Shown piece by piece: positions 8,023 through 13,789 of a stretch of DNA of 64,000 nucleotides; position 1 is the stretch's first letter, and every line of letters starts with the position of its first letter. The position numbers were made by a program, and so were the translations under genes. Source of the DNA: Alloascoidea hylecoeti. Its lineage: Eukaryota. The stretch is taken from contig BCKZ01000007.1 in the NCBI GenBank assembly GCA_001600815.1, positions 248,001 to 312,000 of the forward strand, written 5' to 3'. The notes under the pieces are model-generated. The model ran no database searches. It saw only the letters and a list, made by a program, of their open reading frames with translations, and was not told the origin of the DNA.

Positions 8023-9315
8023 ATGAAAGATTTTGATCCCCCTTTTCCAACTTCACCTACACAACAATCATGGCTATTTAAAAGAGCGCTTCGAAGATTA
8101 GGGGTTGAACCTGAACCTGAAACATATTTAGAAGATCTAGAATTTGATATTGCAATGCTACAACTATATGACAGTAATACAGATGATGGTGAGGAGGTTG
8201 TAGAAAGATATTCAAATATTAATTCCTTTCCGGTTAAGAATGGTATTATATTTAGGGCGCCAACTAGAATTCGTTTAATTAAAATAAATATTAATGAGCA
8301 ACAATATACCTGTCAATTGCGGTATCATCCAGATCTGGATAATAATGATGATACTCCATCTGATGATAGGTATACAGTCATATCCATGTCAAGTTTTGGA
8401 ATTCAAACCGTTGATTTAAGCGTGCATCGTTACCGTCATACTAATAATGATAGTGAAAGACAACTAGAACCACATCAAGCTCCAAAAGCTAGTCAAGTAT
8501 TAATTGATGATGTTACATTAAAACAAATTTTACCATTGCAATTTCATGAATTGATAGGGGGTACTCCTAATATCTTTGAAGAAGAAATATTTATTCGTGC
8601 TGAAACCGTACCAGATTGCGAAATAGTGCGAAATCCTCGAGACTATCTCATTTGTGGTTTTAACATTCTTACTACTATTAATAGTGATACACTTCGTGGA
8701 TTTAAATCAATTAACCCTATAATTCCATATGATTCATTTCTCTATGATAATGATAAAGAAATGGCTGGTTTTGAAGTTCGAGATATTAGATTTAACCCTA
8801 ATACAATCGGTTGTGTTAGAATCTTTCATGATGTAACTTATATTCATGACATTCAGTTTTTTAAAAGAATTGATTACTTGGATATGCCAGATATACCACC
8901 TATTTCTCCAAATGATTTTAATAAAAATATTAATGGTCATTGTACATTTACCGATTTATGTTTTTATAAAACTTCTGAAGATATTAAAGAAAAGTGTGAC
9001 ATAAAAAATACATATATGGCTCCTTATGATGATTTTATGATTGATCCATACGATTCATTAAAAGGATTTAATATGAAAGATTATTGCAAAAACGATCTTA
9101 TAGCATTACAGTTAGTAACAATTAAAGGTAGAAAAAGTAAGTTTTATGGAGGAATTAAATACACCGAAAGAAAAAGTCGTAGAGAAGCAAATAGAAATTG
9201 GTTGAGTGAAATAACACCTCCTGAAGGTCATACAATAGTTGGAGTTCATGCAAGAGTTAATCTCAAAGAAAAATGGATTCGCGATTTGGGGATTACTTAT
9301 GCAAGGCTGGATTAG
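8023..9315 (+). CDS. Uncharacterised protein, tandem paralog 1, with C-terminal jacalin-like beta-prism
   Basis: Intact 430-aa ORF, homologous to 10462-11787 and 12461-13789 (FPVKNGI, YHP, SDD, NTIGCVR, DIQFF, KGRKSK, TPPEG.IVGV). The C-terminal pattern resembles jacalin repeats. Confidence 0.85.
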   Translation: MKDFDPPFPTSPTQQSWLFKRALRRLGVEPEPETYLEDLEFDIAMLQLYDSNTDDGEEVVERYSNINSFPVKNGIIFRAPTRIRLIKININEQQYTCQLRYHPDLDNNDDTPSDDRYTVISMSSFGIQTVDLSVHRYRHTNNDSERQLEPHQAPKASQVLIDDVTLKQILPLQFHELIGGTPNIFEEEIFIRAETVPDCEIVRNPRDYLICGFNILTTINSDTLRGFKSINPIIPYDSFLYDNDKEMAGFEVRDIRFNPNTIGCVRIFHDVTYIHDIQFFKRIDYLDMPDIPPISPNDFNKNINGHCTFTDLCFYKTSEDIKEKCDIKNTYMAPYDDFMIDPYDSLKGFNMKDYCKNDLIALQLVTIKGRKSKFYGGIKYTERKSRREANRNWLSEITPPEGHTIVGVHARVNLKEKWIRDLGITYARLD

Positions 9316-9543
9316 AAGGATTAACTACTCAATATTGGGCCCCCAAAGGTTACAGATGACTTAATATCTCTTTTTCTCTGAATTGAATTGAAACCTCAAA
9401 GATGTTGTACTCACTATATTAAAACCTAATAATCGCGATTAAAGCATCCTTTTTAAACTTTCGTGATATATTTAATGTAAACTTTAACTTTAAGAGACCT
9501 AACTAATATCAGTCAATGCAATATGATTTATTAATAACTTTAA

Positions 9544-9600
9544 ATGAAAAAAAATTCTGTTCTCCCATTTCCAACCTCACCAAATCTCTTTTTAAAGTGA
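9544..9600 (+). pseudogene. 5' relic of a fourth member of the tandem family (MKKNSVLPFPTSPNLFLK*)
   Basis: Shares the AACTTTAAATGAAA start context and the PFPTSP peptide with paralog 1, then stops. Confidence 0.65.
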
Positions 9601-11787: not shown

Positions 11788-12460
11788 AAGGATTAACTAC
11801 TCAATGGGCCCAAATGTTTCTGATAACTTAGTGTCTCCATTGGTCTGAATTTAATTGAAACGCCAAAGATGTTGTGCCCAGCATATATTATCACATGGAA
11901 ATGATTTCAACATCTTATAATTGCGATTAAAGCACATTTTTTTAAAACTCTTTTTATTTTATTTATATTTTAATCTTTTTTGGAAACAACCAGGTATAAT
12001 GATTTGGTTGAGGATATTGTATTAATGTATATTAAAACTTTCTGTATATTTTATCTTTCTAACTTGTTATAGAAACATTATGATTTTTATAATTTTCATA
12101 TATAATAATATTTGTCTTTACTTTTCTTTTAATGATTTGTTTTAGCTTTTAGGTTTCTTAAATATGTGTTTGTGGTTGGTAACGAAATTCCGCTGCATAT
12201 AATTATAGTACTTCCGGGAACAGTTTCATATTATTTCGTGTAGTTCAATAATAATCATTGGTAAACCAAAAGAATATTATTTGGTCACATGATACGAGAA
12301 AATTAAATATTCGGCGGTTATCAGTCCATTATTTCGTTGATTTTTTAAGATTTGAGATCACCTGCACAACCCATCTTCCATAAAATAACATGGTTTCGAT
12401 TTCATCCCTTTAATAAACCTAAACTTATCAATCTAATATTATTTTCTTAATTAACCTTAA

Positions 12461-13789
12461 ATGAAAGATATAGATTCTCCATTTCCAAATATACCGGACC
12501 TTCAATCTATACGGAAATCATGGTTATTTAAAAGGGCACTTCAGATTTTAGGGGTTAAATCTGAACAAAAAATAGATATAGGGGATCAAGATTTTGATAT
12601 TGGAAGACTACAATTAAATGACAATGAAACAGATAATATTACTGATGATGATCATGGTAGACCCAATGGTGAAGTTGTTAAAAAGTGTTCAGTTCCTACT
12701 GGTTTTCCGGTTAAAAATGGTATTATATTTAAAGCACCAACTAGAATATATACGGTCAAAGTATATTGTGGATTTAAGTATAAGTGTATTTTGCAGTATC
12801 ATCCGAGGCTGAGCGATCAAGACGATGGATCTGATGTTGAGCCTGACACGCCATCTGATGATATATATACATGTATGTCAAATCTTAAGACCTTTGATTT
12901 AGGCTTACACCGCCAAACTAATAATAATATTGATGATCAGAATAAACTACAATCCGAAATACATCCCACTCCGATAGTTAGTCAGTTATTAGTTGATGAT
13001 GATATATTAAGACAAATTTTACCATTAAAATATCATGAATTCATATCAACTTTTGGATATGATGATGAAGAAAAAATATTTGTTTATGTTGAAACTGTAC
13101 CACATGGTGAAACTGTATCATATGGTGAAGACATAAAAAGTTGTCGAACTTGTATTATGCGGGCTTTTGGAGATGATATTACTACTAAATCAATTGATAG
13201 TGAATCAATTCGTGGATTAAAATCAATTGTTCCTTTAACTGCATATTATTCGCTTGATAATCCTGAATATATAGCACGTTTAGATGTTCGAGAATTTGAA
13301 TTCAATATCAATACAATTGGATGTGTTAGAGTTTTTCATAATGGGAAATTTCTTCAAGATATTCAATTTTTTAAAAGAATTGAAACTTTTGATATGCCAA
13401 TAATACCACAGCTACCCATGTCAACGATTGATGTCAATCATAGTATATCAACAGAAACTGATTTATGTTTCTATAAACCTTCTGAACATAATGAAGATGA
13501 TGGACCTATAAGTATTCGATATACAGATTATGATGATTTTATGATTGAGCCATATGACTCAATAAAAGGATTTAATATTAGTTTCAAAGACTATTTAATC
13601 GGTATACAGATAGTTACAACCAAAGGTAGAAAGAGTAAAATCATTGGAGGTGACGGAGGTTGGTTGGGATATTTAACACCCCCTGAAGGTTATACAATAG
13701 TTGGAGTTCAAGCAGTATTAATCCAAAATGAAGATAAGAAATCAGAAAATGGATTGGATGATTTTGGGATTATTTATGCAAAGATTTGA
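12461..13789 (+). CDS. Uncharacterised protein, tandem paralog 3, with jacalin-like C-terminus
   Basis: Intact 442-aa ORF collinear with paralogs 1 and 2. Confidence 0.85.
   Translation: MKDIDSPFPNIPDLQSIRKSWLFKRALQILGVKSEQKIDIGDQDFDIGRLQLNDNETDNITDDDHGRPNGEVVKKCSVPTGFPVKNGIIFKAPTRIYTVKVYCGFKYKCILQYHPRLSDQDDGSDVEPDTPSDDIYTCMSNLKTFDLGLHRQTNNNIDDQNKLQSEIHPTPIVSQLLVDDDILRQILPLKYHEFISTFGYDDEEKIFVYVETVPHGETVSYGEDIKSCRTCIMRAFGDDITTKSIDSESIRGLKSIVPLTAYYSLDNPEYIARLDVREFEFNINTIGCVRVFHNGKFLQDIQFFKRIETFDMPIIPQLPMSTIDVNHSISTETDLCFYKPSEHNEDDGPISIRYTDYDDFMIEPYDSIKGFNISFKDYLIGIQIVTTKGRKSKIIGGDGGWLGYLTPPEGYTIVGVQAVLIQNEDKKSENGLDDFGIIYAKI

What the first reader, a model, noticed from the sequence alone, without database searches (positions are those of the whole stretch)
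8023..13789. Tandem array of three divergent, unrecognised proteins ending in a jacalin-like lectin fold
Seen: three intact, intronless, co-oriented ORFs of 430-442 aa lie between the conserved genes KAP104 and BOP3. They are collinear over their full length, with variable indel loops between conserved blocks, and none has a signal peptide or TM segment. Knowledge: the last ~170 aa show the three-sheet pattern of jacalin beta-prism-I domains ('IGCVRIFHD..YIHDIQFF'; 'DFMI..YDS.KGF....L..LQLVT.KGRKSKFYGG'; 'PPEG..IVGVH.....I..FGI.Y'). The N-terminal ~260 aa (SWLFKRAL, FPVKNGI.F.A..RI, YHP...SDD.YT, L.QILPL..H) match nothing I recognise. Inference: a lineage-specific, diversifying family of cytoplasmic lectin-like proteins. 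Cytoplasmic fungal lectins often act in defence against fungivores, so this could be an undescribed defence or recognition system.
Basis: partly seen in the sequence, partly recalled or inferred. Interest (0 to 1): 0.8.

Follow-up and report, generated by a model that had tools for sequence, protein, structure and literature searches.

The report
Protease-less offshoots of a yeast lectin-protease
Three neighbouring genes in a budding yeast are shortened, fast-changing copies of a conserved fungal zinc-protease-plus-lectin gene that have lost the protease part and the usual sugar-gripping residues, so they are probably repurposed binding proteins rather than classical defence lectins.

Summary
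The three ORFs are real, intact and collinear (49-52% identity). They are not of unknown origin. Profile alignment places nearly their whole length on the last ~290 residues of the conserved fungal YIL108W-type protein (Pfam Metallopep + Jacalin; MEROPS M39): HH probability 99.5%, E 1e-21, 280 columns. The intact gene survives on another contig of this genome. The copies begin after the zinc motif, so they have no protease domain. They keep one helix, a beta-sandwich-like middle domain and the beta-prism I domain. The parent family conserves three griffithsin-like GG/GxxxD sugar sites; none of the three copies keeps a complete one. The loops of the former sugar face are the most variable part (omega 0.6-1.2, many indels), while strands and opposite loops are under purifying selection (0.2-0.5). 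Positive selection on that face is not shown. Best reading: non-catalytic cytoplasmic binding modules with a rebuilt apex and unknown, probably non-mannose ligands. The fold was modelled on the parent only; expression is untested. The defence-lectin idea is weakened, not excluded. New variant of a known family; moderate interest.

The parts
8023..9315 (+). Copy 1 (P0001, 430 aa): protease-less derivative of the YIL108W/M39 Metallopep-jacalin gene
8023..8208 (+). Copy 1 residues 1-62: N-terminal helix whose Trp17 aligns with the family-invariant Trp370 of the parent (71 of 71), then an acidic linker
   Evidence: global hhalign (posterior 0.50 at the Trp, low around it); MAFFT
8209..8688 (+). 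Copy 1 residues 63-222: homologue of the parent's middle beta-sandwich-like domain (parent 400-495), with a ~50-residue insertion at about residues 105-155 shared by all three copies
   Evidence: (score 35.7, E 4e-5; best of 100 shuffles 20.5); fold from parent model
8689..9312 (+). Copy 1 residues 223-430: beta-prism I (jacalin-type) domain with rewritten apex loops and no complete GG/GxxxD site
9490..9600 (+). 5' relic of a fourth copy: leader plus ATG at 9544, 18 codons, stop at 9598-9600; start of the range approximate
   Evidence: blastn 9526-9581 vs 8004-8057, 81% over 57 columns, E 3.6e-7; nhmmer E 0.014; alignment
10061..10219 (.). Fragment of a decayed dispersed repeat between copies 1 and 2
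   Evidence: 9 other places in G000 at 70-81% identity
10462..11787 (+). Copy 2 (P0002, 441 aa), same architecture; shares about 100-190 bases of 3' flank with copy 1
12461..13789 (+). Copy 3 (P0003, 442 aa), same architecture; best score to the family jacalin profile (60.6 bits); keeps one GG loop and one site Asp, but from different sheets
4655..7378 (+). Left flank: last exon frame of a HEAT-repeat importin-beta-type gene (KAP104-like; name recalled). Not part of the family
13971..15494 (+). Right flank: DUF2722 gene (BOP3-like; name recalled). Not part of the family
   Evidence: PF10846, E 8e-23

Best explanation
Origin (shown, about 0.95): a copy of the 3' half of the YIL108W/M39 zinc-metzincin-jacalin gene, starting roughly 15 residues before the invariant Trp that follows the zinc motif and Met-turn, settled between the two flanking genes and was tandemly amplified to three intact copies and one relic. 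Loss of catalysis (shown): the whole protease domain is absent. Loss of canonical sugar binding (strong inference from motifs): all three GG/GxxxD sites are broken. Mechanism (inferred, about 0.45): the products are soluble, cytoplasmic, non-catalytic binding proteins. The middle domain and the base of the prism form a conserved scaffold. The rebuilt apex loops, different in each copy, give each copy its own ligand, most likely a protein or a non-mannose structure. They would act by binding (sequestering or tethering) and not by cutting.
For: Whole-length collinear homology: HH local P 99.0, E 2.3e-18, 247 columns; global P 99.5, E 1.3e-21, 280 columns; MAFFT on module-only sequences gives the same register. 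The only two non-self hits among 1.84 billion representatives are both Metallopep-jacalin proteins (2 of 5 hits). No HExxH in any copy; no match to the protease part. Parent module model pLDDT 89.2 is a beta-prism I (Foldseek griffithsin 3ll0 E 2.7e-9; VIA 1c3k Z 16.7, rmsd 2.4, 132 aligned). Site Asp conserved in the family 69 of 71, 71 of 71, 28 of 38 ungapped but His/His/Gln, Ile/Met/Ile and Arg/Tyr/Asp in the copies. Apex loops: 11 of 81 columns invariant, 26 gapped; base loops 29 of 58 invariant, 1 gapped; Fisher p 4e-6, 8e-4 on ungapped columns. One omega for the whole prism rejected in 4 of 4 fits, p <= 1.3e-7. All three copies carry a shared invariant Trp and a shared 13-14 residue insertion on the apex that the family lacks.
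Against: Apex omega is 0.61-1.18 and never significantly above 1; in 1 of 4 fits it is significantly below 1, so simple relaxation after loss of sugar binding fits equally well. Only 4 of the 17 sites with posterior above 0.5 for the fast class lie on the apex, which holds 48 of 326 sites. I drew the loop boundaries after seeing the alignment. The copies themselves did not fold (pLDDT 29.4, three sequences), so their structure is inferred from the parent. The middle-domain match alone is modest (HH probability 57-70%; by HMMER 1.4-6.0 bits, below the best shuffle at 10.4). The tree does not fix which family member gave rise to them. No ligand and no expression data.
Confidence: 0.45

Rival explanations
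1. Same origin, but the apex is only relaxed. The function lies in the conserved N-terminal helix, middle domain or prism base, which bind one conserved partner; the three copies are largely redundant (dosage or regulation).
For: Apex omega compatible with 1 in 3 of 4 fits; base loops and strands at 0.19-0.51; copy-specific invariant motifs in the N-terminal half and a conserved 50-residue insertion; fast sites not enriched on the apex.
Against: Middle-domain omega is itself fairly high (0.38-0.68). Base conservation can be explained by packing against the middle domain (parent module pTM 0.81; contact not inspected). Shared new apex features (invariant Trp, insertion with conserved ends) suggest some constraint there.
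Confidence: 0.25
2. One reading: cytoplasmic defence lectins that bind gut glycans of fungivores through non-canonical sites.
For: Fungal defence lectins are cytoplasmic (PMC13324453, passages); no signal peptide; beta-prism I domains serve as targeting parts in several invertebrate-active proteins listed; ZG16p binds heparin outside its mannose pocket (PMC4059138, passages), so loss of the motif does not exclude all glycan binding; tandem amplification and variable apex fit an arms race.
Against: No complete GG/GxxxD site, and the Asp is needed for mannose binding in ZG16p and griffithsin. No effector domain: the only enzyme part was lost, whereas MOA-type chimerolectins need it (reference title seen). 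Proteins are net acidic (D+E 67-71 against K+R 47-58). Positive selection on the apex not shown.
Confidence: 0.15
3. Ageing duplicates: formerly constrained, now losing function in a birth-and-death array.
For: A fourth copy is already a relic; long stem branch of about 2.4 changes per column; uncorrected NG86 omega 0.74-1.27; earlier AI notes report many decaying arrays in this genome (unchecked).
Against: All three frames are open although fourfold sites differ at 11 of 63, 20 of 72 and 15 of 60 positions; neutral survival 0-3 of 2000; 12 of 16, 17 of 21 and 19 of 24 DNA gaps are multiples of three; ML omega 0.32-0.36, omega = 1 rejected. A very recent loss of function cannot be excluded.
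Confidence: 0.08
4. Decoy or regulator of the intact parent protease: the copies compete for its substrates or dock on its catalytic domain.
For: The intact parent is present in the same genome; the copies correspond exactly to its non-catalytic targeting half.
Against: The parent's substrate-recognition sites are precisely what the copies lost; the residues after the Trp of the first helix, invariant in the family (His-Arg-Leu-Asp, 68-71 of 71), are all replaced.
Confidence: 0.07

Closest known systems
YIL108W-type putative zinc metallopeptidase (Pfam Metallopep PF12044 + Jacalin PF01419; MEROPS M39, subclan MA(M) per the table in PMC3890501)
   Same: Collinear homology from the post-catalytic Trp helix through the middle domain to the last strand of the prism; no signal peptide; intact member P0007 (652 aa) on G000:C16.
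   Different: About 355 N-terminal residues with HExxHxxGxxH and the Met-turn are missing; sugar-site residues lost; 50-residue insertion in the middle domain; several apex insertions; three tandem copies instead of one; 24-27% identity to the parent module.
Griffithsin (3ll0, 2gty) and mannose-type jacalin-related lectins (Heltuba 1c3k, BanLec, ZG16p)
   Same: Beta-prism I fold by homology; the parent family aligns motif for motif with griffithsin's three sites and its model matches these structures.
   Different: The three copies score below any reported Pfam Jacalin match, lack complete GG + GxxxD sites and carry an extra 220-residue N-terminal part.
Fungal defence chimerolectins (MOA, CCTX2) and hololectins (CCL2) (PMC13324453, passages)
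   Same: Cytoplasmic location; the parent has the same logic of lectin plus protease as MOA.
   Different: Different lectin fold (beta-trefoil in MOA is my recall); the copies lack an effector domain and the canonical sugar sites; no toxicity data.
Beta-prism domain II of Cry proteins (e.g. Cry5B, PMC9785347, passages)
   Same: Beta-prism whose apex loops do the recognition; weak structural match of the parent prism (Z 7-9). That apex loops set receptor specificity in Cry proteins is my recall.
   Different: No pore-forming helical domain; no sequence relationship shown; Cry5B keeps GG and GxxxE motifs, the copies do not. An analogy only.

Membership tests
YIL108W/M39 Metallopep-jacalin family (descent) | Homology to the family's jacalin domain | tested here: met
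   35.0-60.6 bits against best 4.0 of 300 shuffles; HH P 98.7-99.1
YIL108W/M39 Metallopep-jacalin family (descent) | Homology to the middle domain, in collinear order | tested here: met
   HH score 33.7 and 35.7, E 1e-4 and 4e-5, above all 100 column shuffles (best 24.0 and 20.5); same register in all three by tblastn and MAFFT. HMMER alone not significant
YIL108W/M39 Metallopep-jacalin family (active peptidase) | Metzincin domain with HExxHxxGxxH and Met-turn | tested here: not met
   No HExxH in 3 of 3 copies; no match to parent residues 1-364; no such frame upstream in the window
Jacalin-related lectins (mannose type) | Beta-prism I fold | tested here: met
   By homology to the parent, whose model is a beta-prism I; direct model of a copy failed
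Jacalin-related lectins (mannose type) | At least one complete site: GG loop plus GxxxD binding loop of the same sheet (definition from PMC4059138) | tested here: not met
   Site Asp replaced at 8 of 9 positions; the one kept (copy 3, last hairpin) lacks the motif Gly and its partner loop Gly
Jacalin-related lectins (mannose type) | Pfam PF01419 above the gathering score | tested here: not met
   0 of 3 full proteins, 0 of 3 C-terminal halves; own-genome family search rings only at the parent
Jacalin-related lectins (mannose type) | Measured carbohydrate binding | not testable with these tools
   needs glycan array or calorimetry
Fungal cytoplasmic defence lectins | No signal peptide | tested here: met
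   hydropathy scan
Fungal cytoplasmic defence lectins | Glycan-dependent toxicity to fungivores, induction by feeding | not testable with these tools
   no assay; no RNA holder listed
DUF7600 (PF24539) proteins | Match to PF24539 | tested here: inconclusive
   Atlas lead at 0.82 only; no Pfam match for the copies; the genome search rang nowhere, controls included

The most novel reading that the evidence does not exclude
A budding yeast has turned the targeting half of a housekeeping lectin-protease into a small repertoire of intracellular recognition proteins, in which a beta-prism scaffold displays hypervariable apex loops that bind non-self proteins (of mycoviruses, mobile elements or competitor toxins) or predator receptors, one arm of a wider expansion of recognition modules in this genome.
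Probability: 0.18. Interest if true: 0.75.

Novelty: new variant of a known kind. Interest (0 to 1): 0.42.

Why it matters
If the best reading holds, this is a clean, datable case of a new binding-protein family made by cutting the enzyme off a conserved lectin-protease and rebuilding the ligand face; 65 of 69 relatives found kept the full zinc motif and no second clear stand-alone module turned up. The comparison also gives a testable idea for the poorly known parent family (listed as of unknown molecular function in PMC6706384): its prism keeps three griffithsin-like sites across fungi, so it is probably a sugar-guided cytoplasmic metalloprotease. Against high interest: domain loss with tandem amplification is a common route, the array is small, and no ligand or phenotype is known.

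Tried and rejected
AlphaFold2 of copy 1 on the three-sequence alignment: pLDDT 29.4, not used for fold search; its strand-helix order loosely follows the parent model but is not counted as evidence. Pfam on the copies: only sub-threshold RPC5 and YfkD matches on copy 2, rejected. PDB sequence search with the three copies: 1 match at E 0.99, rejected. ESM Atlas: jacalin-containing clusters at 0.86-0.87, lead only; no usable hit for the N-terminal 245 residues. MAFFT with full-length homologues scattered the N-terminal half over the protease domain in every setting tried; one variant paired the copies' Tyr-His-Pro with the parent's Tyr-His-Pro at 380-382. I rejected these because profile comparison against the protease part gives P 0.08, E 0.63 while HH, HMMER, tblastn and module-only MAFFT agree on the other register. 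NG86 omega near 1 rejected as an effect of AT-rich codon use; ML gives 0.32-0.36. M2a over M1a and M8 over M8a are significant in 4 of 4 fits (p 5e-5 to 9e-4) but with a class at omega about 31-33 on 8-11% of sites from three sequences; treated as a hint only, since multi-base changes and alignment error give this pattern (my knowledge). Tree: 35 rows (32 of the 71 module sequences plus the copies; 39 metagenome fragments left out), 331 of 786 columns; placement unresolved, sister to the own-genome parent alone in 52 of 1000 bootstraps, to the Ascoidea rubescens protein in 320 of 1000; AU p 0.26 for holding copies and parent together. Middle-domain fold matches (Z 5.0-5.7, Ig-like sandwiches; OgpA Z 5.2, rmsd 5.2, 115 aligned) are below the tool's caution level. 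Metagenome scan with the copies: 0 of 209 pattern matches confirmed. Sequencing runs: no RNA holder listed. Synteny of the interval in related yeasts could not be examined, as no eukaryotic relatives are held. Earlier-findings look-ups near the locus, by words and by the parent sequence returned nothing. Literature searches (listings seen) showed no title or abstract start on protease-less YIL108W derivatives; subscription journals are largely missing and no supplements were read.
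Full report
Observation. The three ORFs are at the stated places: 8023-9315 (430 aa, P0001), 10462-11787 (441 aa, P0002), 12461-13789 (442 aa, P0003), all on the plus strand and uninterrupted. They align end to end at about 50% identity. Hydropathy shows no membrane span or signal peptide. 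The neighbours are a HEAT-repeat importin-beta-type gene and a DUF2722 gene; the names KAP104 and BOP3 are recalled, not from a call. A fourth copy survives as a 5' relic: 9526-9581 is 81% identical to the start of copy 1 (E 3.6e-7), shares the leader of all three genes and stops after 18 codons. The host is an AT-rich budding yeast, inferred from the named hits, and reads CTG as Leu.

Range. The family is very restricted. The word-indexed search returned 3 proteins of 3760 candidates, all from this array. HMMER over 1.84 billion representatives returned 5: the same 3 and two weak ones. No metagenome contig encoded a relative (0 of 209 pattern matches). In the own genome the N-terminal half matches only the three copies (3 of 3 candidates).

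Origin. The two weak hits solved it. P0006 is a shortened call of a 652-aa gene (P0007) on contig C16 of this genome, which the own-genome search with copy 3 also found (E 4.1e-6). P0007 is Pfam Metallopep (5-419, E 4e-162) plus Jacalin (530-647, E 1.6e-7). P0005 is a 2251-aa member of the same family with six jacalin domains. Homologues are named 'putative zinc metalloproteinase YIL108W' by their sources; PMC3890501 lists YIL108W as MEROPS M39 in subclan MA(M) (passage). A profile of the family's jacalin part scores the copies at 35.0-60.6 bits against a best of 4.0 in 300 shuffles; the protease part does not score them. With 71 module sequences (26 proteins plus 45 unique fragments from 80 metagenome loci), the whole copies align to parent residues 360-652 with probability 99.0 (local, 247 columns) and 99.5 (global, E 1.3e-21, 280 columns). 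The N-terminal half alone matches the middle domain at score 35.7, E 4e-5, against a best of 20.5 in 100 column shuffles (33.7 against 24.0 with 26 sequences). By HMMER alone that part is not significant, although all three copies hit the same register. MAFFT on module-only sequences gives the same alignment, with four columns invariant across all 23 rows, the first being the Trp that follows the catalytic region. So the 'unrecognised' 260 residues are the parent's post-catalytic helix and middle domain, with a shared insertion of about 50 residues. The copies start about 15 residues before that Trp, after the zinc motif at 317-327 and the Met at 333. None has HExxH, and no protease frame lies upstream. 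The genome has one Metallopep and one Pfam-positive Jacalin match, both the C16 gene. The tree cannot say which family member was the donor: the copies form one clade on a very long stem; holding them with P0007 is not rejected (AU p 0.26) but is the bootstrap choice in only 52 of 1000 trees.

Fold. A model of copy 1 failed (pLDDT 29.4). The parent module, residues 360-652 with 26 sequences, folded well (pLDDT 89.2, pTM 0.81). Its last 145 residues are a beta-prism I: Foldseek ranks monomeric griffithsin first (E 2.7e-9), VIA ranks Heltuba first (Z 16.7, rmsd 2.4, 132 aligned). The middle domain is a seven-strand unit with weak matches to Ig-like sandwiches (Z 5.0-5.7), which may be only a common arrangement. 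The structure of the copies is therefore inferred, not modelled.

Sugar sites. Mannose-type jacalins bind through a GG loop and a GxxxD loop, and changing the Asp abolishes mannose binding in ZG16p (PMC4059138, passages); griffithsin has three such sites with Asp30, Asp70, Asp112 (PMC6835697, passages). The family profile aligns with griffithsin motif for motif. In the family the three Asp are conserved in 69 of 71, 71 of 71 and 28 of 38 ungapped rows (33 rows end early), and the partner-loop glycines in 68-71 of 71; 76 full-length proteins give 75, 68 and 45 of 76 with 0, 5 and 9 gaps. In the copies the three positions read His/His/Gln, Ile/Met/Ile and Arg/Tyr/Asp; the hairpins carry insertions or deletions; the first two partner glycines are lost in all copies. 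Copy 3 keeps one GG loop and one Asp, but these belong to different sheets (sheet grouping as in the ZG16p figure legend), so no copy has a full site. A caveat: all copies have an acidic residue one position after the canonical one in the first and third hairpins; the flanking strand residues fix the register, but a local shift cannot be excluded without a structure.

Selection. Fourfold sites differ at 11 of 63, 20 of 72 and 15 of 60 positions, far below saturation (0.62-0.64), so the duplications are not ancient although half the residues differ. The frames are under selection: neutral survival 3 of 2000 at 0.1 substitutions per site and 0 of 2000 above that, and most DNA gaps are multiples of three. 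Codon ML gives omega 0.32-0.36 overall, with about 60% of sites near 0.13-0.18; the NG86 values of 0.74-1.27 ignore AT bias. Variation is uneven: apex loops 11 of 81 columns invariant and 26 gapped, base loops 29 of 58 and 1 gapped, strands 29 of 58 and none gapped. Partitioned omega is 0.61-1.18 on the apex, 0.19-0.51 on the base, 0.19-0.37 on strands, 0.38-0.68 in the middle domain (two models, two column sets). The difference is significant in 4 of 4 fits, but the apex is never significantly above 1. The face that is most conserved in the parent family is thus the most variable in the copies. I set the loop limits after seeing the alignment, and three sequences give little power.

Mechanism. 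Shown: descent from the 3' half of an M39 gene, loss of the protease, tandem amplification, maintained frames. Strongly inferred: loss of canonical mannose binding and a cytoplasmic location. Inferred with less support: the scaffold now presents rebuilt, copy-specific apex loops to other ligands and works by binding alone (0.45). The main rival is that the apex is merely relaxed and the function sits in the conserved parts (0.25). A defence lectin with non-canonical glycan binding gets 0.15: fungal defence lectins are cytoplasmic (PMC13324453, passages), but the sites and the only effector domain are gone. Decay gets 0.08 and a decoy of the parent 0.07. How the fragment moved is unknown; both parent and copies are intronless, and decayed repeat fragments lie in the array.

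Context and novelty. Of 69 relatives found with a module-only profile (8000 candidates scored), 65 have the full zinc motif; the other 4 are copy 1, two short records that look like partial gene calls (P0055, 301 aa; P0085, 191 aa on a 2-kb contig) and one long protein with a substituted motif (P0058). I found no second clear stand-alone module, within the limits of a word-indexed search. Eight literature searches (listings only) showed nothing on such derivatives. Passages of PMC6706384, PMC3707968 and PMC8330549 give no function for YIL108W; passages of the fungal lectin survey PMC8227253 mention jacalins in Agaricomycetes only. No supplements were read, and these or subscription papers may hold more on the parent. 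Unchecked AI notes describe similar remodelled arrays of F-box, Ubc6-like and Gid4-like genes in this genome, which makes the event less singular. Verdict: a new, truncated and remodelled variant of a known family, neither an active M39 peptidase nor a canonical jacalin lectin. Interest 0.42.

Noticed in passing
L009:6949-8904 (-), G000:C16:337948-339903: The intact parent P0007 and its family keep three griffithsin-like GG/GxxxD sites behind a metzincin domain with no signal peptide; this predicts a sugar-guided cytoplasmic protease, a testable idea for the uncharacterised YIL108W family.
   Followed up: partly
P0009-P0023, parent residues 552-565: 12 of the 25 homologues and 2 metagenome fragments carry a PxxPxR motif (SH3-ligand type, recalled) in a long loop of the prism; P0007 lacks it. 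The copies have a Pro-rich insertion at the same place without the Arg; homology not shown.
   Followed up: partly
P0005 (2251 aa): Family member with one protease domain followed by six jacalin domains and at least two middle domains: the same C-terminal module amplified inside one polypeptide.
   Followed up: partly
P0058 (563 aa): Family member with a full protease region whose zinc-binding histidines are partly substituted: a possible pseudo-protease in another fungus.
   Followed up: no
window 10061-10219: Fragment of a decayed dispersed repeat family (copies share up to about 0.9 kb per aligned piece); the minus-strand translation resembles the end of a Tc1/mariner transposase (recalled, not tested).
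   Followed up: partly
window 7648-7763: 74% match over 126 columns to G000:C6:706651-706775, upstream of copy 1; nature unknown.
   Followed up: no
window 4301-4660: The importin-beta-type gene has an upstream exon (frame with MVQQW at about 4466) and an intron before the long frame at 4655.
   Followed up: no
L009:4553-6172 (-): Next to the parent gene lies a secreted protein with a small Cys-rich N-terminal module, an Ala/Thr/Ser linker and a C-terminal domain that looks like CBM1 plus GH45 endoglucanase (recognised by eye, not scanned), uncommon in budding yeasts.
   Followed up: no
window 15865-15964 and 30195-31412: An assembly gap of N follows a T-rich tract after the DUF2722 gene; a dioxygenase-like ORF at 30195 contains ambiguous bases.
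   Followed up: no
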